DNA of 62,165 nucleotides, counting the filler, from Babesia bigemina (Eukaryota), in NCBI RefSeq assembly GCF_000981445.1. It is 5 parts of 5 records of this genome, joined end to end, with 100 filler letters (N's around TTAATTAATTAA, not from the genome) between each part and the next. Parts side by side here need not be neighbours in the genome. Positions count along the whole stretch, not along the records: positions 39,845 to 51,958 come from NW_012237244.1; 4 more parts are not named here. One strand, written 5' to 3'. A program made the position numbers and the translations under genes. The notes under the pieces are model-generated. The model had not been told where the DNA came from, did no database searches, and saw only the letters and a list, made by a program, of their open reading frames with translations. Positions 7,173 through 56,296 of the stretch are shown here, in pieces; the first letter of the stretch is position 1; each line of letters opens with the position of its first letter.

Positions 7173-7225
7173 AAGTTATTGCTATGGTTTATAGAGGTCA
7201 TAGCGATATTATGGCGAGGTGATTA

Positions 7226-13969: not shown

Positions 13970-14118
13970 AATTTAGTCAAATTTCTTGTGAAGCTCCCTA
14001 GGAGGCACATGGTCAGGGCAGTGGCAAGAGGTGGAAGAGGGGGAGTGAAGGGTGACAAGGCACAAGTTATTAGGATGGTTTATAGAGGTCATAGCGTTAA
14101 TATGGCGAAGTAATTCAA

Positions 14119-17805: not shown

Positions 17806-17996
17806 AAGATGTGGAGTGGATAAAGGGACGATGTAGAGTGGGTAGAGGAGCGATGTAGAGTGGGTAAAGGGGCGATGTAGAGTGGGTAAAGGGGCGATGT
17901 AGAGTGGGTAAGGGGCGATGTAGAGTGGATAAAGGGGCGATGTAGAGTGGGATAGGGAGCGATGTAGAGTGGATAAAGGGGCGATGTAGAGTGGAT
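17806..17996. repeat. Repeat A array upstream of gene 3
   Basis: Tandem units. Confidence 0.95.
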
Positions 17997-18012
17997 TATA
18001 ATCACTACTCTG

Positions 18013-18120
18013 GTAACCATGTCATCGCTGCCGAGACCATGTCATCGCTGCCGTAACCATGTCATCGCTGCCGTGACCTTGTCATCGCTGCCGTGACCAT
18101 GTCATCGCTGCCGTGACCAT
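18013..18120. repeat. Repeat B array (about 5 copies)
   Basis: 20-bp units. Confidence 0.92.
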
Positions 18121-18712
18121 CAACTTGGTCAGGTGCTTGGTCATGGCATTGGTTAGCACTTTGGTCAGCACATTGGTCACCACATTGGTCAGCACATTGG
18201 TCAACACTTTGGTCAACACGTTGGTCAACACTTTGGGCAGCACTTTGGTCGACAATTTGGGCAGCACATTGGTCACCACGTTGGTCACCACGTTAGTCGT
18301 GGCATTGGTCAGGTGCTTGGTCACCACTCTGGTCATGGCATTGGTCAGCACATTGGTCACCACGTTGGTCACCACGTTAGTCGTGGCATTGGTCAGCAGC
18401 TTGGTCACCACTTTGGTCATGGCATTGGTCACCACCTTGGTCACCACGTTGGTCAGCACCTTGGTCACCACGTTGGTCGTGGCATTGGTCAGCACGTTGG
18501 TCAGCACGTTGGTCATGGCATTGGTTAGGTGCTAGGTCACCACTTTGGTCATGGCATTGGGCAGCATCTTGGTCATGGCCTTGGTCAGCACGTTGGTCGT
18601 GCCATTGGTCAACACTTTGGTCATGGCATTGGTCAGCACTTTGGTCAGCACATTGGTCAAAACGTTGGTCACCACGTTGGTTATGGCATTGGTCAGTTGC
18701 TAGGTCACCACT
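18121..18712. repeat. Repeat C array
   Basis: 12-bp units. Confidence 0.92.
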
Positions 18713-18875
18713 GTTATCGCTGCTGTGTCACTGTCATCTCTGCTGTAACCATTAACTTGGTCAGGTGCTTGGTCATCAACGCGGTCATTACGTTGTCTAG
18801 ACATTAGATGTCAGTTGGCAGTTAGGTGATCAGTGGGATTTGGATTACGATGTTTGCGCTTACAAATTGCTGAGA

Positions 18876-19076
18876 TCAGCTGTAGAACGCGATGCAGAGG
18901 GGTATCTTGCGTACGAGGAACTCGCGGATGTTGCGGCCTACCGGGAAGCGGAAGATGCACAGGTCGAGCAGGATGATGGCGACGATGATGGCAACGATGA
19001 CGGCGGCGATGGCTTGGGGGTCAGGGGGGGAAGTAGCCATCTCACTGCTCATGTCATTGATCATCAACGCAATCAT
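18876..19076 (-). CDS. 66-aa TM/tail micro-ORF (...AIAAVIVAIIVAIILLDLCIFRFPVGRNIREFLVRKIPLCIAFYS); may be a gene relic
   Basis: ATG-started ORF with a hydrophobic helix; nearly the same peptide is encoded at 19165-19320 and 50968-51111. Confidence 0.5.
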   Translation of the reverse strand: MIALMINDMSSEMATSPPDPQAIAAVIVAIIVAIILLDLCIFRFPVGRNIREFLVRKIPLCIAFYS

Positions 19077-19164
19077 TACTCTGTCTATAACATTAGATGT
19101 CAGTTGGCAGTCAGGTGATCAGTGGGATTTGGATTACGATGTTAGCGCCAACAAATTGCTGATC

Positions 19165-19320
19165 TCAGCTGTAAAACGCGATGCAGAAGGGTATCTTGCG
19201 GACGAGGAAATCGCGGATGTTGCGGCCCACCGGGAAGCGGAAGATGCACAGGTCGAGCAGGATGATGGCGACGATGATGGCAACGATGACGGCGGCGATG
19301 GCGGAGTAGGGAGAAAGTGG
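19165..19320 (-). pseudogene. Headless TM/tail cassette (PYSAIAAVIV...RNIRDFLVRKIPFCIAFYS*), no in-frame start
   Basis: Translated by hand; in-frame TGA immediately upstream; stop at 19165-19167. Confidence 0.65.
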
Positions 19321-19406
19321 TCACCTCACTGCTCATCTGATTTGTCATCAACGCAATCATTACTGTCTACAACATTAGATGTCAGTTGGCATTTAGGTTA
19401 TTGTGA

Positions 19407-19814
19407 TCAGCTGCGCAGCAGATACCGCATCCTGTGGAAGGGCCGGATGCGGAAGTATATCATGACGCTGATGACGACGATGATGAGGGCGACGGCGGCG
19501 ATGATGATGGGAAGGACGGGGGAGGAGGAAGTGGAGGAATCGGCAAGCTGTGCACTGTACTGCGTGGCGGCAGGGCGTGAACGTTTCCTGTCACAACATG
19601 TACATTGACATCTATCGGTGTTACACGTGGTATCTCGAGTGCCGCAGTCCGAAGGATGGCATTTCTTCTGCTGTCTGAGTTGCCTGTTAGACTGCATACA
19701 TGATATGCACTTTCTAGAACTACCACATCTTGTACAACACCATGGACAGCAATAACACACGTCGAACTGTTTACATCTCCTACCTGGACAATCACAGTCC
19801 CATTCTCCAGACAT
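19407..19814 (-). CDS. Small cysteine-rich single-pass membrane protein (135 aa, 18 Cys, CCPWCC motif, C-terminal TM plus YFRIRPFHRMRYLLRS), copy 1
   Basis: Paralog at 50455-50862 keeps length, all 18 Cys and the tail despite divergent DNA, which indicates coding constraint. Confidence 0.85.
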   Translation of the reverse strand: MSGEWDCDCPGRRCKQFDVCYCCPWCCTRCGSSRKCISCMQSNRQLRQQKKCHPSDCGTRDTTCNTDRCQCTCCDRKRSRPAATQYSAQLADSSTSSSPVLPIIIAAVALIIVVISVMIYFRIRPFHRMRYLLRS

Positions 19815-20290
19815 CTTCCCCTCCCGCTCCCAGTCCCCTCAACCTGCAGACATGTCAATCACCTGAGCAACGCACTCACCAACTGCAACACTACCACTGC
19901 CGCTCCCACTCCCCTCAACCTGCTGACATATCAATCACCCAGCAACGCACTCACCAACTGCAACACGTACCACTGCCGCTCCCAGTCCCCTCACCCTGCG
20001 AACATGTCAATCACCTAGCAACGCACTCACCAACTGCAACACGTGCCACTGCCGCTCCCAGTACCCTCAACCTGCGAACATATCAATCACCTATGCAAGC
20101 ACTCACCAACTGCAACACGTACCACTGCCGCTCCCAGTCCCCTCACCCTGCGAACATGTCAATCACCTAGCAACGCACTCACCAACTGCAACACGTGCCA
20201 CTGCCGCTCCCAGTACCCTCAACCTGCAAACTTATCAATCACTCGAGCAGCACTCACCAACTGCAACACGTACCACTGCCGCTCACCAAC
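19815..20290. repeat. Repeat E array (about 76-bp unit) directly upstream of the Cys-rich gene
   Basis: Reverse complement of the array at 49600-50454. Confidence 0.9.
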
Positions 20291-20299
20291 TACAACATG

Positions 20300-20810
20300 A
20301 CTTACTTAACCCTCACCCCTGTATCCCCCAGCCCGGGCCACCGACACCCACGCTGCCCGGGATACCACAGATGCCCTGACGCGACGCATGTGATCGGCAA
20401 CAACTGTCACTTCAAATTATTCACTATTCGCAACGCCATGAAAATTGCAGCGAACCCCGTGCGCTCAACTCCCACAGTGCAGCAGCACCGTGCTACGAGC
20501 CGCGGTATCGGCGCCATGCTGGCGGAGCGTGTCGGCTACGTGCCTAAATGTGATATTAACAATCGCTACATCGCCGCCAATATATGCTACCTAACCAGGC
20601 CAACGCCGATTACGCCACCCCGCCAGTGACTCGCAACACACGACTTAGTTCACCCGCCGCGGCCCTCACGGCCGCCTACGTTAGCGACCAATCACCCAGC
20701 CTCACGTGACACCGACTCAATAGGCAACGCGGACGCCTCTCACAGTCATCGCACAACTCAACGCAACAACACACCGACGTGCTACAACACCCACCAAATT
20801 ACGGTTCATC
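20300..20810. other. Conserved unique non-coding block (candidate promoter or ncRNA), copy 1
   Basis: Colinear with the reverse complement of 49100-49600; no conserved ORF seen. Confidence 0.6.
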
Positions 20811-20811
20811 C

Positions 20812-21022
20812 GCCAGCTTAGCACTTTGCCTGGTTGCTAGCTCAGCACTTTGCCTGTGTGTTTGCTGAGCACTTTGCCTAGTTGCTATCTTAGCACTTTG
20901 CCTGGGTGCTAGGTCAACACTTTGCATGGGTGCTTGCTTAGCACTTAGCCTGGGTGCTAGCTTACCACATTGCCTGGGTGTTTGCTGAGCACATTGCCTG
21001 GGTGCTAGGTCAACACGTTGCA
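20812..21022. repeat. Repeat D array (24-bp, AGGCAAAGTGCTAAGCTAGCA(A/C)CC on -)
   Basis: 24-nt periodicity (RQSAKLAP pseudo-peptide). Confidence 0.9.
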
Positions 21023-21163
21023 TTGTCGTTCACTCATCACATAATCTAAACGCTATCCAGTTCACAAGTTACCCCTTTAGTAATTCGAGACATTAGACTA
21101 CGTTTGTCGGTTAGGTGAGTAGGTGATGCTAGGTGAGTGTAGATAGTAAACACGTGAGTACGA

Positions 21164-26515: not shown

Positions 26516-26782
26516 AATTCCCTGGCCGTCGTAGCCTTTGGAGTCAGAGTTGAAGCCGAGGAAAGTTTCGAGGCCAGTACAGAGGTTAGTAAGGATGTTA
26601 GTAGGGTTGTTATTTAAGGTATTTTTAAGGTTTTAAATTTCATCAAATTTCTTGTCAAGCTCCCTAAGCGGCACATGGTCAGGGCAGTGGCAAGGGGTGG
26701 AAGAGGGAAGTGAAGGGTGACAAGGCACAAGTTATTGTAATGGTTTAGAAAGGTCATAGCGGTATTATGGCGGGGTAATTCA

Positions 26783-32512: not shown

Positions 32513-32654
32513 TTGTACTCACGTTTGTAATTCACAGCAACTCACCTAGCATATCACCTACTCACCTAACCGACAAACGTAGTCTAATGTCTCGAAATAC
32601 TCTAGCGGCAACCTGTGAACTGAATAGCGTTGAGATTAAGTGATGAGTCAACAA

Positions 32655-33365
32655 TAGAGCTAAGTGCTAACCTAGCACCCAGGCAACGCGTTGACCTAGC
32701 ACCCAGGCAAAGTGCTAACCTAGCACCCAGGCAAAGTGCTAAGCTAGCAACCAGGCAAAGTGCTAAGCAAGCACCTAGGCAAAGTGGTAACCTAGCACCC
32801 AGGCAAAGTGCTAAGCTAGCACCCAGGCAAAGTGCTAAGCTAGCACTCAGGCAAAGTGCTCACCTAGCACCCAGGCAAAGTGCTAAGCTGGCAACCAGGC
32901 AAAGTGGTGACCTAGCACCCAGGCAAAGTGTTAAGCTAGCACCCAGGCAAAGTGTTAAGCAAGCATCCAGGCAAAGTGCTAAGCTAGCACCCAGGCAACG
33001 TGGTAAGCTAGCACCCAGGCAAAGTGCTAAGGTATCAACCAGGCAAAGTGCTAAGCTAGCAACCAGGCAAAGTGCTAAGCAAGCACGCAAGCAACGTGCT
33101 AAGCAAGCACACAGGCTAAGTGCTAAGCAAGCACGCAAGCAACGTGGTAAGCTGGCACCCAGGCTAAGTGGTAAGCAAGCATCCAGGCAAAGTGCTAAGC
33201 TAGCACCCAGGCAACGTGGTAAGCTAGCACTCAGGCAAAGTGGTAACCTAGCAACTAGGCAACGTGTTAACCTAGCAACTAGGCAACGTGTTAACCTAGC
33301 AACTAGGCAAAGTGGTAACCTAGCGACTAGGCAAAGTGGTAAGCTAGCACACAAGCAAAGTGCTG
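32655..33365. repeat. Repeat D array (24-bp)
   Basis: Tandem 24-nt units. Confidence 0.93.
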
Positions 33366-33388
33366 ACCATCCACCTGACCAAGTTAAT

Positions 33389-33490
33389 GTCACGGCAGCG
33401 ATGACATGGTCACGGCAGCGACGACATGGTTACGGCAGCGATGACATGGTCACGGCAGCGATGACATGGTCACGGCAGCGATGACATGGT
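33389..33490. repeat. Repeat B array (5 copies)
   Basis: 20-bp units. Confidence 0.92.
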
Positions 33491-33509
33491 GATCTAAGTG
33501 GTGATTATT

Positions 33510-33808
33510 ATCCACTCTACATCGCCCCTTTATCCACTCCACATCGCCCCTTTACCTCCTCTAATCGCTCCCTAACCCACCCTACATCGCCCCTTTATCC
33601 ACTCTACATCGCCCCTTAACCCACCCTACATCGCCCCTTTATCCACTCTACATCGCTCCCTAACCCACTCTACATCGCTCCCTAATCCACCCTTCATCGC
33701 CCCTTATCCACTCTACATCGCCCCTTTACCCACTCTACATCGCCCCTTAACCCACTCTACATCGCTCCCTAACCCACTCTACATCGCTTTTTTACCCACT
33801 CCACATCC
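33510..33808. repeat. Repeat A array upstream of gene 6 (C-rich on +)
   Basis: Tandem units. Confidence 0.95.
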
Positions 33809-39070: not shown

Positions 39071-39192
39071 TCGTACTCACGTGTTTACTATCTACACTCA
39101 CCTAGCATCACCTACTCACCTATACAACTAATTGTTGTCTAATGTTTTTAATTACTCATTGATCGTTGTATGTGATTGTGTAGTAGTTAACT

Positions 39193-42218: not shown

Positions 42219-42486
42219 CGAATTACCTCGCCTTAATACCGCTATGACCTCTATAAACCACAATAATAACTTGTGCCTTGTCATCCTTCACATCCCCTCT
42301 TCCACCTCTTGCCACTGCCCTGACCATGTGCCGCCTAGGGAGCTTGACAAGAAATTTGACAAAATTTAAAACCTTAAAAATACCTCAAATAATAACCCTA
42401 CTAACATCCTTAATAACCTTTGTACTGGCCTCGAAACTTTCCTCGGCTTCAACTCCACTTCCAAAGGCTACACTGGCGAGGGGATT

Positions 42487-45400
42487 GTGTACTCTGACCT
42501 GGATAGGCTGTGTGACGGGGTGATGGGATTTTTGTATGGTGTGCTTATGGATGTCAGCGAGAAACAGCCTTACAGTGTGGGTAAAAGAGAGATAAATGAA
42601 GCTGTTGAAATGCTTAAAAAGAATTTATCCACCGGGCGTGAGGGTTTTAGTGTCATTGCGCAGGTGGCGGGGAAGGTGCGGGAGTATAATGAGAGAGTTA
42701 AGCAAAGTAACGATGATATGAAAACCATAATAAACAATATGGACAGAGACATGAAAACGCTTCAAAATGAGGTAGGTAACATTCTACGAAATAATCCTGA
42801 TTCAGAAAATTTTGATGAAGTCAAGCAGGCTGAAACCTTGGTCACTAAGCTGGCCGACGAGTATGCAAAAAAAGGTATGAATTTCGATAGTAATTTTGTC
42901 ATAAGAGAGATAAACGCATGGAGGACAGGTGCTAATGTTGAGCCAATACAGCAATTCAAAGACATAAATTCTGACCTGAGATTAAAAATCACCCATGCAA
43001 GAAACAATATCACGCATGAGGCTGAGAGGCTTACGACACTGTCAAAGAAGCAGAAAGAGAACTTGGCTGCGATGACTAGTATGATTAGTAATAAGCTCAA
43101 AACGCTTAAAAGCTGTGTCAATGAGCGAATTTTGCAAGATGTCAATGAGCTTGTTAGCAAGGTGAATGAGAAAGTTGCGGCAATTTTGCAATTGCTACAG
43201 AGGATCAGCGCGACGCTTTGGAATTATGTTAATGAATTGGGGAGGTGGATTAAGGATGCGGAAGGAATTGTGACTCAAGCAATTAAGGACACGAAAGAAA
43301 TCGAGCAAAAAGGACCGGGTTGGCAAAACCAGGATAAGATCAATGAGAAAGCAAAGGAGTTCAAGGACAAGGCTACGGATCTCTACTGGAAATTTGAGGG
43401 TGCGAAGCGGTCAGTTGAGGAGGGCGTAAAAAGCGCGAAAATTGAGAATGTTGAGCAGTTGACTACGTGGAAGAAGGCAGGCGACGCGGCCGTTACGAAG
43501 GCGAAGAGACAAGGTGCGGCAATTGGTGAGATGGTTCAGACTAAAGGTGCAGGTAAGGAGGATATTTATAAGTTAGCTAACGATATGAAAACAAAGGCTG
43601 AGAATCTCAGAGCGGCGGCGAAGCATATTAAGAAAGAGATTGGAGGATGGGTTAAAACAGCGCTTACGCAGGTGAAGGATATGGATGAGGCGCTGAAGAA
43701 GGATTTGTATAAGGTGAAGGAGGCTGTTAGTAGGCAGGTAGAAGGGATTAAGACGGCGATTGGGAAGTTGTATAAAGTGGTTGAGACTGGAGACACGGAA
43801 GGGGCAACGCACAACTCAATGGTCGAGATGGTCGACCTTATAAAAAATAAGATAAAGACCATTGAAGGGGTAGGCGGAAGGTTCGTAACTAAACCAACCG
43901 GGCTGTGGGCAATCAGTCAGCAGGTTCCGACCTACGTTAAGACGTTTGAGAACTTTGATGCGACGGTCGCTGATTGGGTGAGGGAGATTGTGAGAAGGAT
44001 GGTAGCAAATAATGGTCCCCTGCATGAGCATATTGACATGTATGCTTCCGAAATAGAAACTCTGCAAAATAACCGTGAACAACTGCTTCCTAAGGTGAAG
44101 GAACAAATCATTACCAAGGTCATAGCCAAGGTAAAAGAAATTGCGTTAGCTCACAAAGCGGATCTTGCCACCAATGGAAATGTGGAAACCGATTTAAAAT
44201 TGATTAAAAGATTCCTTGATCACTTTAATGGGCAAAGTCTACAGAATGGTGTTGACCATATAGTCAGTGCTATAGAGAAGGCAGGTGAATTACAAGTGGA
44301 TCCCTCCAAACAAAATGTTATACACAACTCAGATCTGAAGAATGCCGTAAATATAGTTTTGCATGTTTTTTCAATGGCTGCTGAAAAAATGGGTGAGCAA
44401 ATTCAGAAGCTTGCTACTGACTGCCATCTCGGCAAAATCAACGAGGCATTGACCACGGCTAGCGATTTTGAAGAGAAATTGAAACAAGCTACAGGAAACC
44501 AATCCGTTGGAACATCCAGCAGTAGGATTAACTTTGCCCTCGCCGTCGACAACGCGATCAGGGAGGTGACGGAAGAGCTTGGGAGAAAATTGATTACCGC
44601 CGCTGGTGATACAGTCACGCTGGAAACAACGACTGCCTTCTCCAAATACGATGGCTTTGTCGACCAAGACAAAGTGTCCTCCCTTTCCAACTCTGACTTC
44701 GAAGCCATCAAAAGCGCAGGCTCCCTCCCCGCGGCGATCGGTGCGATAAAGACGCAGGTGACGAGTAAGCTTAACGAAGGTAAACTAGCATCAGAAATAG
44801 ATGCCTCTGACACTTTCACCGATCCCTTCGGTAAAATCACCGAAAAACTCAAAACCATCGCCGGGCTGGTTGACAGCGACAAAAGTAATCTGCGTCCAGC
44901 ACCGGGAGATGGCCAGAAGAACGGCGTGAACAACTACCTGAATGATATTACAAGTATGCTTGGCAAAACTCCCGTCGACCTCAAGTCAGATATAAAAGGG
45001 AGCCACCCAAATGTCAAAGGCCTCGAGACGATAAAGAGTGAAATCGACTCCGCGCTCGACGGGATTAAAAATAAAGCTGACGCAGAATTTGATGCCGCAA
45101 AAGCAACTACAGACAGCGGAAACATATTCACAACTTTGTCCACCGCGATCACTACGAATCTCAAAGACCTTTTGGCAGCTTTCGAGGAGGCAGGCAAACA
45201 AGTGAACAAACATTTGCAAAAATTAAAAACCAACATCGGCAAGAAGGAACATGGCGCTGATGCTGCAGTTGGTACGCTGCAGAAAATCCACGACAATCTT
45301 GTTACCTTGTTGAACGGTGACATTAGCCAAGTCATCAATGACGCCACTGCCTTCAAAAAACAAGCCAATCAATTGCGTGATAAAACAATCGGAGCACTCA

Positions 45401-48222
45401 ACGGACACGTCGAAGATGAAGTTAAAAAAGCCGAAACCGCCCTCATCACCCAGGCCAACAAAAACTACGTCACGTCCGTCAAAGAGATGCTGACTGCCTT
45501 CGCCGACAAGGTGCAGAAGGAACTGAAGCCCCTCCCCGGCGAGATCGACACCGACAGGCAGCACGGCTTTAAGGGTTTCATGCGGACGTTGCAGGGGACG
45601 TTCAACGGTGATGAGACTTTGACTGACAATATTGACAAACTCAAGGGTCTCGTAAGTGAACTGTCAGGGACTGTGAATCACAAGGAGGCGTTCGCAAAAT
45701 TGTCGCAAAAATTAAAGGAGTTCTGCTCACCACTTCACGACTACCTCAAAGAAGAGATCAGAAGGGTTCACGCAGCGAATCAAGAGAAAACAAATCCCAA
45801 GCCATCTGGCGACGAACAGCTCTACACCTCCAAACTCGAAGCTGCACATATCGCGCTCAACAATCTACTCGATCACATTAGTAATCACCGCTACAACCAC
45901 GAAGTGCCCGCCTTGCTTGACATCCTCTCCACTAAAGTCGATGGTCTGCACCCCAAGACATTCAATGAACCGAGCACTCCGCTGCTTGACGGCGTTGGCA
46001 AGGGTGTTCACGGGTTCGTTAGTGAACTGGACAAGGCGTACATCTCGACCTACGACAGTGAGACCTTTGGCGGTGAGATGTTCGAGAAAGATAAATTAAC
46101 AGCCTATGGCACAAAATTCGCCAAAATATGCTTCACCGTGGTATGCACCCTCAACTCCACGTTGACCGACTTGACGCACAATTGCAAGAGTCTACGTGGA
46201 CAGCAAATTAATAAGTCCACCGACGTGGGAAGATCATTCGTCGGCCACGGCTACGCGGTCTCCGATGCGGCGCTGCAGAACGGCGAGTTGCAAAACAAAC
46301 CGACAGTGGCGGGAGAGAACGTTGCTAAGCGGTTGCTGCTACCAATTCGCGGCGCCGACGAGAACCAACACCTTAAATGGTGTGAATCGAACGAGCAGAG
46401 AAAAGCCGACCACTTCCACGTCTTCGACGCCATTGACTGCATATTCAGCCACTTCGAGCAGTACAACGAACTCTGCCACCTGCTCACGGCCTCAGCGAAG
46501 CAGCACCCCTGCTCCGTGTACGACATATTGATCTGGCTCAGCGGTTTCCCGTACACTGCAGTATATGCTACGATGAGTGATATAACCATCAGTGATCTAT
46601 TTGACAACCCGCATAAGAAGGCGGCCGGCGACGACGAACTTGAGCTCACATCGACTGACATGGCAGCCCAATCCATAACGGCGCACCCCCGAAACATATC
46701 GTATACTTACGTACGTAAAGCCGTGGACCATATCTGTGCGACGTCCTATGACGTATTGACTGCCGTTGTCGGCACTGGCGACTCCAGGACCGTTTACGCC
46801 TCCGACTTCTGCAACAACTCATTCAACTTCCATTACCCATCGGATCCGTCGGACTGCCTGGACATGCTGCTGGACCTACTGCGCCGATTGTTGCCCGTGT
46901 TCCGGTTCTTGGAACTGCAGTGTAACATCAAGCCTGAACACCACGGTTGGTCACAGTGCCGCTACGGGAGGGACATCCCTACAACCAAATCGCAGTGTAA
47001 CGAGCACTCAAGCGAAGAAGCAAGCGGACAAGCAAAGTGCCAAGTAAACTGCCAGCCAACGTCCCCCCTTATGTTATACCTCAGTGACAGCCTCCCTGGC
47101 CATCTGCCGCACCAACTGCAGTCAGTGGGATGCAGAGCGAAATGCAGCACCTGCCCTAAGAACCAACCAGGGCAACTGTGCTTGATTCCTCTCGGATTCA
47201 AGGGCTTCTCGGGAAGCTCCAAAACGGGCAGACAGTTGTGCGAAGCAATCAAGATCTTCATCGGTACAGGCTTAATATCCTCACTGATGTGCCTCCTGCC
47301 GAAGCCACCATCCACGCTGCCCGAGCACTTCCAGTTTGTATTCACGTTGGTTGGTGCGTTTAATGCTAACAGAGATGTCAACTCAAATGCCGTCAATGCT
47401 GCGTTTGTGAAGGCAATAAGGAAGCAGTCCATCGACTTGTATGCGGAGCCATCAGAACTCACAGGCGCGCTTCAGAAGGCTTATAACAGCAACGAGCAGC
47501 ACGACGGTACGGAGCATCCCAAAGCTTCAGATGCCGATTTGTCAACATTGTCTAAAGCAAAGACATGTAATTATCCGAACAAGGATGTTCACTGCGCTCC
47601 GTACCTGTCCACGTTGTACAGTGATGCATACCACTACGCTGCCGAGAAGCACGCCGGTCTCTACCTGTCATGGGCAGTGTACTTACCGTGGTCGTTTTGG
47701 CAGTGTCTTGAATCTTTGTTCAAAGCGTTTACCAACATATCCTGTCAGGATTGGGGATGTAGTCGCTGCACGCACGGCACGGCTTGTAAACGGGGTAAGC
47801 ATGGCGCTGCCTATAATTGCCAGTGCAAAGGCCTCGTTGAATGCCGCGGTGTCATAAGCACGTTATATAGTTTCGGATTCACGTTTGGCAATCCAGCGAC
47901 GCTTTCAGCTGCAGAGGGAAAAAGGTATTGCCACAATTTCTACAGACAACTCCACAATGTATTAAATTCCAACTACTTCAGAACGCTGTTCGAAAAATGC
48001 GACGAATTCATTTTCACCATCAGACAGCCGTTCATATGGATGACCGTGGCGCTCTGGTCACTATCTCTCTTCTACCTCCTTTGCGTAATGGTTGGCAGAC
48101 TGGATGTGCTCCACATACGCTCACACCTGAGGATACCGTCATCACACAAGATAACGGCGCAATCATTGTTGGCTGCAGCGCAAGTCGGAAGGCTTGCCAA
48201 GATATCGTATCTACAACCGTAA
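42487..48222 (+). CDS. ves1: VESA1-like protein (gene 7; GTGD subtype); first ATG at 42523; in-frame TAA in leader at 42367-42369
   Basis: 1911-aa ORF with conserved motifs, TM and ...AKISYLQP tail. Confidence 0.85.
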   Translation: MYSDLDRLCDGVMGFLYGVLMDVSEKQPYSVGKREINEAVEMLKKNLSTGREGFSVIAQVAGKVREYNERVKQSNDDMKTIINNMDRDMKTLQNEVGNILRNNPDSENFDEVKQAETLVTKLADEYAKKGMNFDSNFVIREINAWRTGANVEPIQQFKDINSDLRLKITHARNNITHEAERLTTLSKKQKENLAAMTSMISNKLKTLKSCVNERILQDVNELVSKVNEKVAAILQLLQRISATLWNYVNELGRWIKDAEGIVTQAIKDTKEIEQKGPGWQNQDKINEKAKEFKDKATDLYWKFEGAKRSVEEGVKSAKIENVEQLTTWKKAGDAAVTKAKRQGAAIGEMVQTKGAGKEDIYKLANDMKTKAENLRAAAKHIKKEIGGWVKTALTQVKDMDEALKKDLYKVKEAVSRQVEGIKTAIGKLYKVVETGDTEGATHNSMVEMVDLIKNKIKTIEGVGGRFVTKPTGLWAISQQVPTYVKTFENFDATVADWVREIVRRMVANNGPLHEHIDMYASEIETLQNNREQLLPKVKEQIITKVIAKVKEIALAHKADLATNGNVETDLKLIKRFLDHFNGQSLQNGVDHIVSAIEKAGELQVDPSKQNVIHNSDLKNAVNIVLHVFSMAAEKMGEQIQKLATDCHLGKINEALTTASDFEEKLKQATGNQSVGTSSSRINFALAVDNAIREVTEELGRKLITAAGDTVTLETTTAFSKYDGFVDQDKVSSLSNSDFEAIKSAGSLPAAIGAIKTQVTSKLNEGKLASEIDASDTFTDPFGKITEKLKTIAGLVDSDKSNLRPAPGDGQKNGVNNYLNDITSMLGKTPVDLKSDIKGSHPNVKGLETIKSEIDSALDGIKNKADAEFDAAKATTDSGNIFTTLSTAITTNLKDLLAAFEEAGKQVNKHLQKLKTNIGKKEHGADAAVGTLQKIHDNLVTLLNGDISQVINDATAFKKQANQLRDKTIGALNGHVEDEVKKAETALITQANKNYVTSVKEMLTAFADKVQKELKPLPGEIDTDRQHGFKGFMRTLQGTFNGDETLTDNIDKLKGLVSELSGTVNHKEAFAKLSQKLKEFCSPLHDYLKEEIRRVHAANQEKTNPKPSGDEQLYTSKLEAAHIALNNLLDHISNHRYNHEVPALLDILSTKVDGLHPKTFNEPSTPLLDGVGKGVHGFVSELDKAYISTYDSETFGGEMFEKDKLTAYGTKFAKICFTVVCTLNSTLTDLTHNCKSLRGQQINKSTDVGRSFVGHGYAVSDAALQNGELQNKPTVAGENVAKRLLLPIRGADENQHLKWCESNEQRKADHFHVFDAIDCIFSHFEQYNELCHLLTASAKQHPCSVYDILIWLSGFPYTAVYATMSDITISDLFDNPHKKAAGDDELELTSTDMAAQSITAHPRNISYTYVRKAVDHICATSYDVLTAVVGTGDSRTVYASDFCNNSFNFHYPSDPSDCLDMLLDLLRRLLPVFRFLELQCNIKPEHHGWSQCRYGRDIPTTKSQCNEHSSEEASGQAKCQVNCQPTSPLMLYLSDSLPGHLPHQLQSVGCRAKCSTCPKNQPGQLCLIPLGFKGFSGSSKTGRQLCEAIKIFIGTGLISSLMCLLPKPPSTLPEHFQFVFTLVGAFNANRDVNSNAVNAAFVKAIRKQSIDLYAEPSELTGALQKAYNSNEQHDGTEHPKASDADLSTLSKAKTCNYPNKDVHCAPYLSTLYSDAYHYAAEKHAGLYLSWAVYLPWSFWQCLESLFKAFTNISCQDWGCSRCTHGTACKRGKHGAAYNCQCKGLVECRGVISTLYSFGFTFGNPATLSAAEGKRYCHNFYRQLHNVLNSNYFRTLFEKCDEFIFTIRQPFIWMTVALWSLSLFYLLCVMVGRLDVLHIRSHLRIPSSHKITAQSLLAAAQVGRLAKISYLQP

Positions 48223-48369
48223 TCATCGTCACATTTGTAACTCACGTAAACTCACCTAACATCACCTACTCACCTAACAAACAAACGTAGTCTAATGTCT
48301 CGAATTACTCTAGCGGCGACCTGTGAACTAGATAGCGTTGAGATTAAGTGATGACTGAACGACAAAGCT

Positions 48370-49100
48370 GAGTGCTAAGCAAGCAACCAGGCAAAGTGCT
48401 AAGCTGGCACACAGGCAAAGCGCTAAGCTGGCAACCAGGCAAAGTGCTAAGCAAGCAACCAGGCAAAGTGCTAAGCAAGCAACCAGGCAAAGTGCTAAGC
48501 TGGCAACCAGGCAAAGTGCTGAGCTAGCACCCAGGCAAAGTGTTAACCTAGCACCCAGGCAAAGTGCTAAGCTAGCACACAGGCTAAGTGCTAACCTAGC
48601 ACACAGGCAAAGTGCTAAGCTAGCAACCAGGCGAAGCGCTAAGGTGGCACCCAGGCAATGTTCTAAGCTAGCAACCAGGCAAAGTGCTAAGCTAGCAACC
48701 AGGCAAAGTGCTAAGCAAGCACGCAGGCAAAGTGCTAGGCTGGCAACCAGGCAAAGTGGTAACCTAGCAACCAGGCAAAGTGGTAAGCTAGCAACCAGGC
48801 AAAGTGGTAACATAGCAACCAGGCTAAGTGCTAACCTAGCAACCAGGCAAAGTGGTAAGCTGGCAACCAGGCAAAGTGTGAACCTAGCAACCAGGCAAAG
48901 TGCTAAGCTAGCAACCAGGCAAAGTGCTAAGCTGGCAACCAGGCAAAGTGCTAAGCTAACACGCAGGCAAGGTGTTGACCTAGCAACCAGGCTAAGTGTT
49001 AACCTAGCACCCAGGCTAAGTGATAAGCTGGCAGTCAGGCAAAGTAATAAGCAAGCACTCAGGCAAAGTGCTAACCTAGCAACCAGGCAACGTGGTGAGC
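48370..49100. repeat. Repeat D array (24-bp)
   Basis: Tandem units. Confidence 0.93.
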
Positions 49101-49600
49101 TGGCGGATGAACCGTAATTTGGTGGGTTGGTTGTTGCGTTGAGTTAAGCGTTGACTGTGAGAGGTGTTTGCGTTGCGCATTGAGTCAGTGTAACGTGAGG
49201 CTGGGTGATTGGTCGCTAACGTAGGCGGTCGTGAAGGCCGCGGCGAGTGACCTAAGTCGTGTGTTGCGAGTCACTGGCAGCGTGGCGTAATCCGCGTTGG
49301 GCTGGTTAAGTAGCTTTATAGGCAGCGATCTAGCGATTGTCAATATCACATTTAGGCGCGTAGCCGACACGCTCCGCCAGCATGGCGCCGATACCGCGGC
49401 TCGTAGCACGGTGCTGCTGCACTGTGGGAGTTGAGCTCACGGGGTTCGCTGCAATTTCAATGACGTTGCGAATAGTGAATAATTTAGAGTGACGGTTGAT
49501 GCTGATGACATGCGTCGCGTCAGGTGTGGCCGTGGTATCCTGGGCAGCGTGGGTGTCAGTGGCCTGGGCTGGGGGGATACAGCGGTGAGGGTAGGTGTTG
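49100..49600. other. Conserved unique non-coding block, copy 2
   Basis: Homologous to 20300-20810 in reverse orientation. Confidence 0.6.
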
Positions 49601-50454
49601 ATGAGGGGAGTGGGAGCGGCAGTGGTAGTGTTGTGTTGGTGAGTGCGTTGCTAGGTGATTGATGTTAGCAGGTTGAGGGGAGTGGTAGCGGCAGTGGTAC
49701 GCGTTGCAGTTGGTGAGTGCGTTGCTTAGGTGATTGATATGTTCGCAGGTTGAGGGGACTGGGAGTGGCAGTGGTACGTGTTGCAGTTGGTGAGTGCTGC
49801 TTGAGTGATTGATATGTCTGCAGGCTGAGGGGACTGGGAGCGGCAGTGGTACGTGTCGTAGTTGGTGAGTGCGTTGCTTAGTGATTGATATGTTCGCAGG
49901 TTGAGGGGACTGGGAGTGGCAGTGGTACGTGTTGCAGTTGGTGAGTGCTGCTTGAGTGATTGATATGTTCGCAGGTTGAGGGGAGTGGAAGGGGCAGTGG
50001 TACGTGTTAGTTGGTGAGTGCGTTGCTAGGTGATTGATACGTTTGCAGGTTGATGCGACTGGGCGCGGCAGTGTACGTGTTGCAGTTGGTGAGTGCTTTG
50101 CTAGGTGATTGATATGTTTGCAGGTTGAGGGGACTGGGAGCGGCAGTGGTACGTGTTGCAGTTGGTGAGTGTTTGCTTAGGTAATTGATATGTTTGCAGG
50201 CTGAGGGGACTGGGAGCGGCAGTGGTAGTGTTGCAGTTGGTGAGTGCGTTGCTTAAGTGATTGATATGTTTGCAGGTTGAGGGGAGTGGGAGCGGCAGTG
50301 GTACGTGTCGTAGTTGGTGAGTGCTGCTTAGGTGATTGACATGTTCGCAGGTTGAGGGGACTGGGAGGGGCAGTGGTACGTGTTGCAGTCGGTGAGTGCG
50401 TTGCTTAGGTGATTGATGTCTGCAGGTTGAGGGGACTGGGAGGGGAAGGGGAAG
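49600..50454. repeat. Repeat E array (about 76-bp unit, about 11 copies)
   Basis: Unit GTGAGTGCGTTGCTTAGGTGATTGATATGTTCGCAG-GTTGAGGGGACTGGGAGCGGCAGTGGTACGTGTTGCAGTTG. Confidence 0.92.
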
Positions 50455-50862
50455 ATGGGTAGAGGACGATGCTTGAATTGCAATAATAATTGTAATCCGC
50501 CAGCTGTATGTATTTGCTGCCCATGGTGTTGTGACAAATGTAATGGTATCAGCTGTGATCAATGTTCGGAGGCAAACAGACCCCTCAGACTACGGAAAGT
50601 ATGCAACGCTTCTCAATGTGAACTTAATAAGGGCACGTGTACAAAAATTGGCAGTTGTCAATGTAAGTGTTGTGAGCAGAAACGCTCTACTTCCGGTCAC
50701 TCCTCTACATTCAGCGCTCATTCTAAGACCGACACTCAACCGCATACATCACCCGCCCCTTACATCATCGTCCCCGTTGCCATCATCATCCTCGTCGTCT
50801 GCGTCATGGTCTACTTCCGCATCCGGCCGTTCCACAGGGTGCGGTATCTACTGCGCAGCTGA
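50455..50862 (+). CDS. Small cysteine-rich single-pass membrane protein (135 aa), copy 2
   Basis: 18 Cys align with 19407-19814; TM plus YFRIRPFHRVRYLLRS; same context ...GAGGGGAAG/AAGGGGAAG-ATG. Confidence 0.85.
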   Translation: MGRGRCLNCNNNCNPPAVCICCPWCCDKCNGISCDQCSEANRPLRLRKVCNASQCELNKGTCTKIGSCQCKCCEQKRSTSGHSSTFSAHSKTDTQPHTSPAPYIIVPVAIIILVVCVMVYFRIRPFHRVRYLLRS

Positions 50863-50967
50863 TCGCAATCACCTAACTGGCAACTGACATCTAATGTTCT
50901 AGGCAGTAATGGTTGCGTTGATAATCAATCACATGAGCAGGGAGGTGACTACTTCACTACCCCTCCC

Positions 50968-51111
50968 TACTCCGCCATCGCCGCCGTCATCGTTGCCATC
51001 ATCGTCGCCATCATCCTGCTCGACCTGTGCATCTTCCGCTTCCCGGTGGGCCGCAACATCCGCGATTTCCTCGTCCGCAAGATACCCTTCTGCATCGCGT
51101 TTTACAGCTAA
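50968..51111 (+). pseudogene. Headless TM/tail cassette (YSAIAAVIV...IPFCIAFYS*)
   Basis: Translated by hand; no in-frame ATG; frame open back to the TGA at 50860-50862. Confidence 0.65.
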
Positions 51112-51244
51112 TCTCAGCAATTTGTCAGCGCAAACATCGTCATCCATATTCCACTGATCACCTAACTGGCAACTGACATCTAATGTTCTAAACAGTAATG
51201 GTTGCGTTGATGACCAATCACATGAGCAGCGAGGTGACCTAGTA

Positions 51245-51555
51245 GCTGACCAATGTGCTGACCAATGCCACGACCAACGTGTTGACCAATGCCATGACCA
51301 GAGTGCTGACCTAGAACCTTACCAAAGTGCTGACCAAAGTGCTGACCAATGCCATGACATAAGTGGTGACCTACCACCTGACCAAAGTGCTGACCAAGAT
51401 GCTGCCCAAAGTGCTGACCAACGTGGTGACCAATGCCATGACCAACGTGGTGACCAAAGTGGTGACCGATGTGTTGACCAACGTGTTGACCAAGGTGCTG
51501 ACCTATGTGCTGACCAATGCCATGACCAACGTGGTGACCAAGCACCTGACCAAGT
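51245..51555. repeat. Repeat C array
   Basis: 12-bp units. Confidence 0.92.
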
Positions 51556-51559
51556 TGAT

Positions 51560-51705
51560 GGTCACAGCAGCGATGACATGGTCACGGCAGCGATGACATG
51601 GACACGGCAGCGATGACATGGACACGGCAGCGATGACATGGTTACGGCAGCGATGACATGGTTACGGCAGCGATGTCTTGGTCACGGCAGCGATGACATG
51701 GTCAC
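51560..51705. repeat. Repeat B array
   Basis: 20-bp units. Confidence 0.92.
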
Positions 51706-51721
51706 CAGAGTAGTGATTATA

Positions 51722-51958
51722 ATCCACTCTACATCGCTCCTTTACCCACTCTACATCGCCCCTTAACCCACTCCACATCGCCCCTTTATCCACTCCACAT
51801 CGCCCCTTAACCCACTCTACATCGCCCCTTAATCCACTCTACATCGCCCCTTTGTCCACTCTACATAGCCCCTTTATCCACTCTACATCGCCCCTTAACC
51901 CACTCTACATCGCTCCCTTATCCACTCCACATCGCTCCCTAACCCACTCTACATCGCC
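51722..51958. repeat. Repeat A array running into a gap
   Basis: Tandem units. Confidence 0.93.
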
Positions 51959-52058: not shown

Positions 52059-52248
52059 TGACTTGATTCGCCTGGCCGTTTAGACTGCGGATTGCACAGA
52101 TTGGAACGAATCAAATGTAAATCCCGTTCAGAGTCTACCATTATTAGAGAGAGCGTCATGCAGATACTACGTTACTTGAGAGGCGTTCGCACGCTCGGAA
52201 TCTACATTCGCTTGACACTACTAAAAGGGGATTTGAGGAGAAATTACT

Positions 52249-55194
52249 TTGCAGGTTCAATCGTTCTTCGCTGAGCAGAAAATGGCAGACTTAGCAGGTC
52301 TACAAAAATTAATTGACAGGCAAATGAAAAACATCAAACGCATCATCGGAAAACACCTGTCCACCGACCTAAAAGGCTTCCTGAAAACACTTCAATGCGG
52401 ATCCATTAAAGTTACTACAAATAAAAATATCAAGCTACTCACTGACCTCGCATCTGCAATCTCTCGGTCACCCGCCCACAATCCCTCCCATCTCAAACAT
52501 CTCGCCGAGGCCTTCCACGACTTCTGCCAGCCCCTCCACACTTACCTCCTCGGAGAGATCACACGAGCCAACCTAAACAATTCCGGCACCACCCCCAATT
52601 ACTCCGCCCGTCTAAAAAGTATTTTCACCGCCTTTTCCACCCTCCTCCCCCATCTCAGAGAGGCAAACAAGTACGACCACCGGGTCCCCTCCATGCTGTC
52701 CAACCTCCGCGACGCTCTCACAGTCCTCAAGCCTGACGGCTTTTCCACGCCGAACAGTTCCACACTGGACTGCATCACGAGCGGGCTCACGAAATTCGCG
52801 GATGAGCTGGACAAGGCGTACATATCGGTGTATGATGGGCAGGGGTTTGAGGGTAAGGTTGTAGAGGAGACGGGTACCGTAGAGGTTTACACCACCGGAG
52901 TGTATCCGGTATATCTATCGACCGAGTACGGAAAGAAGTGCGCCAAGGTGTTTTGCACGGCGCTCGAAATACTGTTCCACGATCTATCTGAGTTGAGGGA
53001 GGAATGCAAACGCGATTGGAAGGATCTGAACATTTGTATGCACCCCGGTGAGGACATTGAAAATGGCCTAGCCTCATACCTGAAAAACTGTGGTTACGGA
53101 GTGCCAAGCAAGCAAGGCGTGCAGGACGGGGAGTTGAGGTACGGAGAAAGTTGGACTGGTGAGAGTATACGTGCAACTCTGCTCATCAAGCAACATGACG
53201 CTACTCTAACGCGTACAGCATTTAGACTTGTCTACGACACTGACGACAAGGATGACGAGCAAAGCGCACCAACGCATAGTGTCCTTAAGCAGCTCATCGA
53301 CTATCTTATACGCTTCTACCAAGTTTGTCACCACGACACCGCTACTTCAACCAAATATCCTTCCAATGTCTACCAAATGTTAACGTGGCTTAGTGGCCTA
53401 CCTCACAGTACCGTATATGACAAATTGTACCTTAATGGATTCGCTGAACTGTTCGAGAAAAAGGATAACCAAGGGGAGAACAGTGACGGAGGCATCACGT
53501 TCGAAATCGGAGGTGACGGAAGCGACGGATCTTCTATCGCTGTTAGCACCAAAGAGGACAATAAGTTGGAAGCATATCCTGTATCCATTACACCCGCAGG
53601 TCTTTCAGACATCCTCACAGCAGTATGCTCCGGCGCCCACGACGTACTTACCAGCGTACTTGGACACGGTCACGCGGGTGGTCGTTATGCCTGTGACTTT
53701 AACACTAACCCCGATAAATTCTCGTACCCCGCCGACATGGTAACGTTAGCATGTTGGCTGTATGATATCCTCAGACGCGTACACCATCAGCTCTATTTCT
53801 TGTACCAGCAGTGTTATCACAACACTGAACGCAACGGGTGGGCTGAGTGCTATTATGGCCGGTACGTCGCTGGATCATCGTGGCAGTGCAACAGGATGCA
53901 GTGCCCTGACCAAACATGTGAGCAAAAGTGTAAGCAAACATGTAACCAAATACACAACCAAAAGGGTGACCAACACCCTAACTGCGGACTAAAGTCGCCG
54001 CTTCAATCTTTCTTAGAAGATGGTTTACAAGGGTTCTTACCGCATAACGTCAAGTTTGAAAGGGGGAAAATGGAATGTTCAGTTAAAGGTCATTTCAATT
54101 TGCCGTGTAAAACGCCCATGGGTTTCGGAAATATAAGCGACCTGGCGTCACATACGCAGCGAGGCAGGCATATCTACGAAGCGCTTAAGAGACTCTGCGG
54201 AGATGAAAGGTCTCCTCTCCCCAAGCTCTGCGGCCAACTGAGCTGTCTTTTGCCAAGCGCTCCCAAGACGCTTGACGACATGTTCGGTTTCTATTACCGA
54301 TTGCTCAGAGGGTGGAATAGTAATTACCCTAGGCGCCAGGAGCACAGAGAGACAGCTTTAGAAGGTGCTGTCAAAGATGCCAATTTCGGGAATGAAGAAA
54401 CCAAGCTGGACGTCACTACAATATTTAAAAAGAACGATCATGGCTCGAAGGAAAATATGACGCATCTCACCGGAGATCTCTATGCTCTTGTCGACTGTAA
54501 CGGCATGACATCATCTGCTCCATCCCATCCATGTGGCCGCTATATGCGACCGATTTGTCATGACATGTGCGGTACCTTTACAAAAGAGAACGCCGACAAA
54601 TATTTGTCGTGGATTGTTTACTGCACCGAGACGTTCCTTCAGTTGTTGAAACAGCTGTACGAAGAATGTGCCAAAAATTGTGACGGGGAGAGACCTAAGT
54701 GCCGTGTCAGTAAATGTAGGAATGGGTGCAAAGCCTACAACCTCCCCGCAGCTGACGGCTCCACTCACATAGAATCCTGCAATTCAATTGTAAATTGCAA
54801 GTTCATGCGTCCCACATTCTACAAATATGGCTTGGTACTTGGAGATTGCAGAAGTCTATCTGCCAAGACGACAAAGCGCACGTGCAAAGATTTGTGTATT
54901 GTATTGAAGAGCGTGACTAACGAAATAGAAGTGGATGGACATCCGCTTGCCAAATTGGTCCATGTTACTATTCCCCAATTCATCTTCACCATACGCGCCC
55001 CCTTCATCTGGCTCAACGTCGCGCTCTGGCTCCTCTCTCTCCTCTACCTCACCCACATCATGGTCATCCGCCTCGACCTCCTCCACATCAAGTCACACTT
55101 ACACTCACCCTCATCACATCGCATAGCTGCTCAATCACTACTCGCCGCTGCACGTGTTAACAAGCTTAACAGAGTGTTTTACCTGCAACCATAA
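52249..55194 (+). CDS. ves1: VESA1-like protein (gene 8; GHGHAGG subtype), 5' part lost in the gap
   Basis: 981-aa C-terminal part with Cys-rich domain, TM and YLQP; shares a block with gene 1. Confidence 0.8.
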   Translation: MQVQSFFAEQKMADLAGLQKLIDRQMKNIKRIIGKHLSTDLKGFLKTLQCGSIKVTTNKNIKLLTDLASAISRSPAHNPSHLKHLAEAFHDFCQPLHTYLLGEITRANLNNSGTTPNYSARLKSIFTAFSTLLPHLREANKYDHRVPSMLSNLRDALTVLKPDGFSTPNSSTLDCITSGLTKFADELDKAYISVYDGQGFEGKVVEETGTVEVYTTGVYPVYLSTEYGKKCAKVFCTALEILFHDLSELREECKRDWKDLNICMHPGEDIENGLASYLKNCGYGVPSKQGVQDGELRYGESWTGESIRATLLIKQHDATLTRTAFRLVYDTDDKDDEQSAPTHSVLKQLIDYLIRFYQVCHHDTATSTKYPSNVYQMLTWLSGLPHSTVYDKLYLNGFAELFEKKDNQGENSDGGITFEIGGDGSDGSSIAVSTKEDNKLEAYPVSITPAGLSDILTAVCSGAHDVLTSVLGHGHAGGRYACDFNTNPDKFSYPADMVTLACWLYDILRRVHHQLYFLYQQCYHNTERNGWAECYYGRYVAGSSWQCNRMQCPDQTCEQKCKQTCNQIHNQKGDQHPNCGLKSPLQSFLEDGLQGFLPHNVKFERGKMECSVKGHFNLPCKTPMGFGNISDLASHTQRGRHIYEALKRLCGDERSPLPKLCGQLSCLLPSAPKTLDDMFGFYYRLLRGWNSNYPRRQEHRETALEGAVKDANFGNEETKLDVTTIFKKNDHGSKENMTHLTGDLYALVDCNGMTSSAPSHPCGRYMRPICHDMCGTFTKENADKYLSWIVYCTETFLQLLKQLYEECAKNCDGERPKCRVSKCRNGCKAYNLPAADGSTHIESCNSIVNCKFMRPTFYKYGLVLGDCRSLSAKTTKRTCKDLCIVLKSVTNEIEVDGHPLAKLVHVTIPQFIFTIRAPFIWLNVALWLLSLLYLTHIMVIRLDLLHIKSHLHSPSSHRIAAQSLLAAARVNKLNRVFYLQP

Positions 55195-56057: not shown

Positions 56058-56296
56058 CGAATTACCTCGCCATAATACCGCTATGACCTCTCTAAACCAT
56101 CCTAATAACTTGTGCCTTGTCACCCTTCCCTTCCCCCTCTACCACCTGTTGCCACTGCCATGTCCTGTCATGTTCACCTTAACTCCAAATCTCTCGAATT
56201 ATATCGCCATATCAACGCTATGACCTCCATTAATTATGACCATAACTTGTTGTTACTTCCCACTCCCGTCGTTATGACGATGCTACTAAGAAAGCC

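What the first reader, a model, noticed from the sequence alone, without database searches (positions are those of the whole stretch)
48223..51958. Repeated accessory module with fixed order: D array, conserved block, E array, Cys-rich gene, headless TM tail(s), C/B/A arrays
Seen: the same ordered module follows gene 7 (+) and gene 4 (-, about 17806-21160), each time behind a D-type 3' flank. After gene 5 the D array runs straight into the B and A arrays (33355-33390) with the module absent. Inference: the module is a unit gained or lost by recombination between the related D and C repeats, making it a second cassette type within the ves locus.
Basis: partly seen in the sequence, partly recalled or inferred. 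Interest (0 to 1): 0.75.

Follow-up and report, generated by a model that had tools for sequence, protein, structure and literature searches.

The report
Unnamed cysteine-rich variant membrane gene family
The repeated block in this surface-antigen locus of the cattle parasite Babesia bigemina is one gene of an unnamed family of about 50 small cysteine-rich, predicted membrane proteins with variable heads and near-constant tails, which often sit next to ves1a antigen genes and likely form a further set of variant surface proteins.

Summary
The module is real: D array, 500-bp block, E array, Cys-rich ORF, spacer and headless TM tail follow ves genes 7 and 4. Gene 5 lacks it. The C/B/A arrays are ordinary ves spacer, not part of it. 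The window is a Babesia bigemina ves1 tandem locus. The Cys-rich ORF and the headless tail belong to one unnamed family: 48 B. bigemina 'hypothetical' proteins plus 8 unnamed hits. They have an 18-cysteine variable head (25% identity outside cysteines), a Ser/Pro stalk, one predicted TM helix and a basic tail of type F (95% identical) or R. E-array peptides precede the head in 27 of 48 models. 18 of 36 chromosomal members are the next accession to a ves1a-cluster gene (background 3%), over 30 clusters. So the module is a gene unit, not a duplication. The gene-5 junction fits a D-by-C deletion; gene 4 instead switched inside the shared ves 3' flank. Heads and tails reassort. No Pfam, PDB, VESA1 or literature match was found. 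Expression is unshown: published tables lack these genes, but also their ves1a neighbours. Likely a new ves-linked variant membrane-protein family.

The parts
42370..48222 (+). ves1-type gene 7 (open frame 1950 aa; C-terminus ...GRLAKISYLQP); likely ves1a class; true start unresolved
   Evidence: no VESA1_N Pfam hit; class is inference
48223..48370 (+). D-type ves 3' flank carrying the shared element ACCTA-N13-17-TCTAATG
48371..49101 (+). D array, 24-bp unit x 30, a dimer of C-like 12-mers
49102..49601 (+). Conserved GC/CpG-rich block, likely promoter and 5' leader of the Cys gene; reading frame not conserved between copies
   Evidence: 91% to gene-4 copy; CpG o/e 1.2-1.3; no Rfam hit at gathering score; role inferred
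49602..50442 (+). E array, 75-76-bp unit x 11; each full unit is a 39-41-nt part plus a 34-36-nt GTGAGTG...CAG intron-like part
   Evidence: 15 of 15 full units in both copies; splicing untested
50455..50862 (+). Cys-rich gene, 135 aa: 18-Cys head, Ser/Thr stalk, predicted TM helix, R-type tail FRIRPFHRVRYLLRS
50863..50973 (+). 3' spacer, copy 1, sharing the ves 3' element
50974..51111 (+). Headless F-type TM and tail (45 codons, open), the C-terminus of the family's commonest form
51112..51244 (+). Tail 3' region and spacer copy 2
51245..51958 (+). C (12 bp), B (20 bp), A (22 bp) arrays: the general ves intergenic spacer, ending at a scaffold gap
21009..21163 (-). Gene-4 3' flank: first 55 bases identical to gene 6's C-type flank, then D-type (inferred crossover site)
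20815..21008 (-). D array x 8
20285..20814 (-). Conserved block, second copy
19824..20284 (-). E array x 6
19407..19814 (-). Second Cys-rich gene, 135 aa, 18 Cys, R-type tail
19165..19302 (-). Headless F tail a (identical to the gene-7 tail over 45 codons)
18876..19013 (-). Headless F tail b (3 synonymous and 2 non-synonymous differences); tandem copy bounded by spacers
17808..18770 (-). Short C-end/B piece, then C, B, A arrays leading to the 5' end of ves gene 3
32513..33807 (+). Gene-5 spacer: D-type flank, D array x 29, D-to-C junction at about 33355-33389, B, A; module absent

Best explanation
The module is one gene unit of an unnamed Babesia bigemina multigene family that encodes small predicted single-pass membrane proteins with a variable 18-cysteine head and a near-constant basic tail, and these likely act as variant surface proteins beside VESA1. 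Shown: the family, its size, its head/tail contrast, its link to ves1a-cluster genes, and the E array upstream of many members. Inferred: the block and E array are the promoter and a spliced 5' leader; the head faces outward and is disulfide-bonded, with no signal peptide, as in VESA1; most copies are a silent archive; shared repeats (ves 3' element, spacer, D/C units, TM codons) let units be deleted, moved behind other ves genes, or swap tails, and the headless F tails are products of and donors for that exchange.
For: 48 relatives, all labelled B. bigemina hypothetical proteins; an exhaustive HMM search of 1.84 billion representatives gave 39 hits: 30 of those, 8 more unnamed members and 1 unrelated-looking hit. 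18 Cys columns are kept in at least 12 of 13 full heads, and head Cys counts are 18 or 20 in 13 of 13. Among 45 F-type pairs, identity is 43% in the head (25% without Cys) against 95% in TM and tail. The two window heads keep all 18 Cys while the other sites have pN 0.52 and pS 0.54, uncorrected. E-array peptides occur in 27 of 48 models (shuffles: mean 0.9, max 4). 18 of 36 chromosomal members are the next accession to a ves1a-cluster gene (background 3.3%, 11% within ves-rich stretches), 26 of 36 within 3, in 30 clusters. The shared 3' element occurs at 11 sites, 6 ves flanks and all 5 spacers, against 0.1 in shuffles. On a tree of 17 heads the R label needs 3 changes, at least 2 forced by a well-supported branch. 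The TM helix is the best-modelled part (pLDDT 86-91). VESA1 has one TM and no signal peptide (PMC9477259 Table 1 passage).
Against: No expression evidence: 18 of 18 members sought are absent from a filtered blood/kinete RNA-seq table, 12 of 12 from a proteomics supplement (identifier format not checked) and 5 of 5 from single-cell supplements. These absences are weak: 6 of 6 neighbouring ves1a genes are missing from the same RNA-seq table, and the control ves1a is missing. Only 15 of 48 models have a complete CCxWCC head; the rest are truncated, frameshifted or mis-predicted. Topology rests on tail charge and inspection; no TM or signal-peptide predictor was run. The head's fold is unresolved (mean pLDDT 54 and 63). 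All named relatives appear to come from one reference assembly (contig lengths and BBBOND tags). R/F labels are not significantly clustered or unclustered on the tree (32-40 of 500 shuffles as low), and several branches are long.
Confidence: 0.6

Rival explanations
1. The family is real and coding, but the head is a cytosol-facing metal-binding or palmitoylated domain (CxC and CC clusters) on an internal membrane, and its variability reflects relaxed constraint rather than immune exposure.
For: No signal peptide by inspection; very high Cys density; non-Cys pN about equals pS in the one pair tested, which fits neutrality as well as diversifying selection.
Against: The tail carries 5 K/R directly after the TM in 13 of 13 rows, which by the positive-inside rule (recalled) puts the tail, not the head, in the cytosol; Cys counts change in pairs (18 or 20); linkage to ves1a.
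Confidence: 0.17
2. The units are mostly non-functional passengers: a once-functional gene copied along with ves1a loci by transposition and gene conversion, now decaying, with the headless tails as debris.
For: 33 of 48 models lack a complete head motif; tails without heads; no expression record; ves1a loci are known to transpose often (PMC4066756 section 24).
Against: Both window ORFs are intact with all 18 Cys despite about 50% divergence at other head sites; 17 full heads in two lineages; all 3 window tails are open over 45 codons.
Confidence: 0.13
3. One reading: an accessory DNA cassette that is gained and lost chiefly by recombination between D and C repeats.
For: Gene-5 junction: the last D unit turns into CAAAGTGCTGAC and then the normal C end and C/B junction; TGACCA occurs 0 times in the three D arrays as delimited and 18-49 times in C arrays.
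Against: One case only; gene 4 switched in the ves 3' flank; C/B/A follows ves genes without the module; the cargo is a gene of a large family with a different commonest form.
Confidence: 0.07
4. The headless F tail is a working alternative last exon or a 60-65-aa micro-protein started in the spacer.
For: Three reference models splice R into F and one unnamed 65-aa model is spacer plus tail alone; the tails are near-invariant.
Against: The spacer frame that those models use is in frame with the tail in only 1 of 3 window copies; the frame continuing the gene-7 ORF is stopped in gene 4. The models are ascertained for being in frame.
Confidence: 0.03

Closest known systems
B. bovis smORF (PMC2034396, PMC6630957; passages seen)
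   Same: About 44 small variant genes interspersed in ves clusters; species-restricted; unnoticed until genome analysis.
   Different: SmORF has a signal peptide, an RxxL motif and no TM. This family has no evident signal peptide, one predicted TM, a conserved tail and an 18-Cys head. Jackson et al. found no smORF homologues in B. bigemina. No smORF protein appeared among the hits.
B. bigemina ves2 (PMC4066756 sections 20, 22, 24 read)
   Same: Short genes in ves loci of the same species.
   Different: ves2 derives from the 5' end of ves1b, has a signal peptide and lacks a membrane anchor. This family is anchored and has no signal peptide.
VESA1 / BbigVes1a
   Same: No signal peptide, single C-terminal TM, short tail, variable outer part; shares the 3' flank element and the downstream C/B/A arrays; frequent immediate neighbour.
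   Different: 135-200 aa against about 1700-1950 aa; no detectable homology to the conserved VESA C-terminal 300 aa (hhalign probability 0.4%).
Plasmodium PIR/VIR family (features recalled, not read here)
   Same: Works-like analogy only: small variant proteins with a Cys-containing outer domain, no signal peptide, one TM and a short conserved tail.
   Different: No PIR-family Pfam hit at E <= 0.1 in 15 members; a far denser Cys scaffold; a different genus.

Membership tests
ves1 (VESA1) | Conserved VESA C-terminal domain | tested here: not met
   Profile-profile comparison of 15 members with 8 window ves C-termini: probability 0.4%, 9 columns
ves1 (VESA1) | Single C-terminal TM, short tail, no signal peptide | tested here: met
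   Hydrophobic helix modelled at pLDDT 86-91; N-terminus starts in Cys motifs; by inspection, no dedicated predictor
ves1 (VESA1) | Displayed on the infected red-cell surface with clonal switching | not testable with these tools
   Needs antibodies and clonal lines
ves2 | Signal peptide and no membrane anchor | tested here: not met
   TM present in all 48 models; definition
ves2 | Homology to the 5' 500 bp of ves1b | tested here: inconclusive
   No match to the window's ves 5' ends in masked self-BLAST, but no labelled ves1b was available
smORF | Signal peptide, RxxL motif, no TM | tested here: not met
   TM present, no signal peptide by inspection; definition
smORF | Interspersed in ves clusters | tested here: met
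   18 of 36 adjacent to a ves1a-cluster gene by accession order
PIR/VIR | Sequence or fold homology to PIR ectodomain | tested here: inconclusive
   No Pfam hit; fold searches ran on a low-confidence model and tested little beyond the TM helix
Autonomous mobile element | Transposase or integrase ORF | tested here: not met
   The only conserved ORFs in the module are the Cys gene and the tails
Autonomous mobile element | Terminal inverted repeats or target-site duplications | not tested
   No dedicated search was run

The most novel reading that the evidence does not exclude
B. bigemina has a fourth, overlooked variant-antigen family: about 50 small disulfide-rich surface proteins, co-located and co-regulated with ves1a (possibly the partner of the ves1a genes that lack a ves1b neighbour), controlled through a repeat-built multi-intron 5' leader, and diversified by swapping heads onto stored spare membrane tails.
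Probability: 0.25. Interest if true: 0.8.

Novelty: new variant of a known kind. Interest (0 to 1): 0.6.

Why it matters
The described ves-locus repertoire of B. bigemina is ves1a, ves1b, ves1ba and ves2, with no smORF counterpart, and the role of its VES proteins is stated to be unknown. A roughly 50-member family with variable heads and a nearly invariant tail would add a missing part to antigenic variation in a major cattle parasite. One antibody or one primer pair against the F tail would read out about three quarters of the named members at once, so expression and location are cheap to test. The family escaped a published clustering, likely because of its 60%-over-150-aa threshold (5 of 6 members sought were unclustered, one was in a pair), and many gene models are distorted by the upstream E array. 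The shared 3' element and the arrays also give concrete candidate crossover sites for the ves transposition that is documented between strains.

Tried and rejected
No whole genome is held, so D arrays could not be counted genome-wide; gene order was read from accession order instead (30 exact accessions; 6 inferred from neighbours; 12 members on small contigs left out). No sequencing reads were examined, so splicing and expression are open. Haplotype pair or single duplication: rejected (heads 48% identical, flanking ves C-termini 50% identical; 30 clusters elsewhere). E, D or C arrays as coding repeats: E units are not multiples of three and their frames vary; the block's frame differs between copies. 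Read-through from R into F: in frame only in gene 7. Pfam on 9 window proteins and on 15 members: nothing at curated cut-off. PDB sequences: only TM-level matches at E 0.5 or worse. Two AlphaFold models were low-confidence; Foldseek gave no match and VIA-align best Z 3.1 on the TM helix only, so the head's fold is untested. Protein atlas: no usable hit. Rfam: nothing at gathering score. Block folding z -2.1, not taken as evidence. Phage collection: no match. P0057 (E 7e-4) was dropped as it lacks the Cys pattern and tail. Earlier scan notes: nothing found. Literature: searches (six locus tags, 0 papers) found no description of the family or the arrays; passages or sections of 11 papers were seen; subscription journals, the Sanger ves lists, one unreadable supplement index of PMC4066756 and figures were not seen and could bear on novelty. 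A complex prediction with VESA1 was not run, since adjacency alone does not justify it.
Full report
Setting. The window holds nine ves1-type genes or gene pieces of about 1000-1950 codons, separated by arrays of 22 (A), 20 (B), 12 (C), 24 (D) and 75-76 bp (E), and it is broken by four scaffold gaps at 14675, 27252, 39745 and 51959. Every labelled homologue of the module's proteins is from Babesia bigemina, so I take the window to be a B. bigemina ves1 locus. No genome is held for it. Order and orientation across the gaps are uncertain.

Observation. The module stands as described after gene 7 and, reversed, after gene 4. The blocks are 454 of 498 aligned bases identical, the Cys proteins 48% identical, and the headless tails differ at 0 and 5 bases over 45 codons. 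Array copy numbers differ (D 30 and 8, E 11 and 6, tails 1 and 2). Of 8 ves 3' ends in the window, 5 lead straight to C/B/A, 3 have the D-type flank, and 2 of these carry the module. C/B/A is therefore the general ves spacer; the module proper runs from D to the last spacer, 2.9 and 2.3 kb.

What the cargo is. Both Cys ORFs start with an ATG just after the last E unit and give 135-aa proteins. The gene-7 protein found 8 relatives; the headless tail found 27 longer proteins, most of which carry a head of the same Cys pattern. A profile of 15 members found 48 proteins, all B. bigemina hypothetical proteins. An exhaustive HMM search returned 39 hits: 30 of the 48, 8 further unnamed members and one unrelated-looking protein that I dropped. 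Of the 48, 36 have the F tail (…FRFPVGRNIRDFLVRKIPFCIAFYS), 15 the R tail (…FRIRPFHRVRYLLRS), and 3 have both, R before F. So the headless tail is the C-terminus of the family's commonest form. In 13 full heads, 18 Cys columns are kept in 12 or 13 rows and Cys counts are 18 or 20. Across 45 F-type pairs identity is 43% in the head (25% without Cys), 27% in the stalk and 95% in TM and tail. The two window heads keep all 18 Cys while other sites show pN 0.52 and pS 0.54, uncorrected. That argues for a constrained scaffold with free loops. Only 15 of 48 models have the complete CCxWCC motif.

Is the order kept elsewhere? Gene models that ran into flanking DNA report it. E-array peptides precede the head in 27 of 48 (shuffles mean 0.9, max 4). 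Block peptides start 5 of 48, 4 of them R-type; spacer peptides occur in 4 of 48 and in 3 of the 8 unnamed hits, one of which is a spacer-plus-tail model alone. D arrays cannot be seen this way. Using accession order and the ves1a cluster list in a supplement of PMC5660447 (file 2, part 4), 18 of 36 chromosomal members are the next accession to a cluster gene, against 3.3% of other genes and 11% within ves-rich stretches; 26 of 36 lie within 3; with the 30 exact accessions alone it is 14 of 30; the members fall in 30 clusters. ves1b and ves2 lists were not used, so the link to ves loci may be understated.

How units change. Three routes are visible. First, at gene 5 the D array turns, within the shared CAAAGTGCT, into two C-type units and the normal C/B junction, 6 kb from any gap. 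A D-by-C crossover that deleted the module is the simplest reading; it is one case, and insertion into an ancestral D-C spacer is not excluded. Second, gene 4 has the C-terminus of the C-flanked genes, its first 55 flank bases are identical to gene 6's, and it then switches to the D-type flank. The module was likely placed behind this ves gene by crossover in the shared 3' element. That element (ACCTA, 13-17 bases, TCTAATG) occurs 11 times, in 6 ves flanks and all 5 module spacers, against 0.1 in shuffles. Third, spacers flank each tail as direct repeats, which explains the tandem tail in gene 4. On a tree of 17 heads the R tail needs 3 changes, at least 2 forced by a supported branch, though branches are long; chimeric tails exist (P0047, P0008). 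R and F TM codons are weakly alike (16 of 500 codon shuffles score as high). All three routes are inferred from sequence; none was observed.

The E array. Each of 15 full units is a 39-41-nt part plus a 34-36-nt part that starts GTGAGTG and ends CAG. This motif occurs 17 times in the two E arrays and twice elsewhere in the window; removing these parts removes most upstream ATGs in the array. A multi-intron 5' leader is plausible: Babesia introns are short (B. bovis mean 60 bp, B. microti 20-25 bp; PMC3467087 passages). Recent amplification of one unit would give the same conservation, so this is a lead only.

How the protein likely works. There is no signal peptide by inspection, one hydrophobic helix (the only well-modelled part) and a tail with 5 K/R. 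By the positive-inside rule (recalled) the tail is cytosolic and the head faces out, where paired cysteines would form a compact disulfide scaffold. VESA1 has the same outline of one TM and no signal peptide (PMC9477259 passage). A variable outer head on a constant anchor, in about 50 copies beside ves1a, is what a variant surface protein looks like. I put this at 0.6. Against it, no expression is on record: 18 of 18 members sought are absent from the filtered RNA-seq table of PMC9806345, but so are 6 of 6 neighbouring ves1a genes, and the reads came from a different strain than the reference. Proteomics (12 of 12 absent) and single-cell supplements are likewise uninformative.

Comparison with known families. 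It is not ves1 (no VESA C-terminal homology), not ves2 and not smORF (both secreted and without TM). It occupies the position that smORF holds in B. bovis, in a species reported to lack smORF. Pfam, PDB sequence, fold and atlas searches gave nothing usable; the fold searches hardly tested the head. Nine literature searches, including six locus tags, found no description. What I saw of papers: PMC4066756 abstract, sections 20, 22 (part 1), 24, passages and supplement searches; PMC9806345 passages and rows of supplement 1; PMC5660447 passages and part of supplement 2; PMC10463595, PMC10471129, PMC10975891, PMC6630957, PMC9477259, PMC2034396 and PMC3467087 passages; PMC9531838 listing and supplement search only. 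Subscription papers and the Sanger ves lists were not seen.

Verdict. The real finding is an unnamed, ves1a-linked family of small Cys-rich predicted membrane proteins with interchangeable tails. Family and linkage are well supported; surface display and switching are inferred. Interest 0.6; new variant of a known kind.

Noticed in passing
window 33836-34000, 42244-42400, 26500-26760, 13840-14095, 6950-7205: The 5' 40-50 codons of the long ves genes are near-identical in DNA but open through in gene 6 only; genes 2 and 7 have an in-frame stop and genes 1 and 4 a frame change before the NLK..NNNP motif. This may be an untranslated leader or an intron rather than damage.
   Followed up: partly
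ves 3' flanks, e.g. window 39071-39125 and 48223-48280: Each flank carries two to four GTGAGT or GTGATG splice-donor-like motifs on the antisense strand, next to the arrays; an antisense spliced transcript or a protein-binding site is possible.
   Followed up: no
window 38900-39070 (gene 6) and 21167-21340 (gene 4): ves C-termini are mosaics of two types: gene 6 has the gene-5/7 type TM with the gene-4 type tail.
   Followed up: partly
window 52237-55191 (gene 8): A 985-codon ves-tailed frame with a different N-terminal part, starting just after a scaffold gap; no Pfam hit.
   Followed up: no
window 17549-17803 and 56059-56317: Genes 3 and 9 share a second 5' type in which the ves leader occurs twice or is followed by a different first coding stretch.
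   Followed up: no
reference loci BBBOND_0312490, 0100160, 0313340: Genes adjacent to three family members are strongly raised in tick kinetes (log2 fold change 15.5, 10.1, 5.4). The rows came from prefixes I chose, so this is not a test.
   Followed up: no
window 14675, 27252, 39745, 51959: All four gaps are 44 N, TTAATTAATTAA, 44 N scaffolding marks, and each has an A array on one side, so array lengths there are truncated.
   Followed up: yes
P0050, P0051: Two unnamed full-head members have divergent R-like tails (…RVRDFCARK…, …KVRDCFERR), possibly a third tail class or another species.
   Followed up: no
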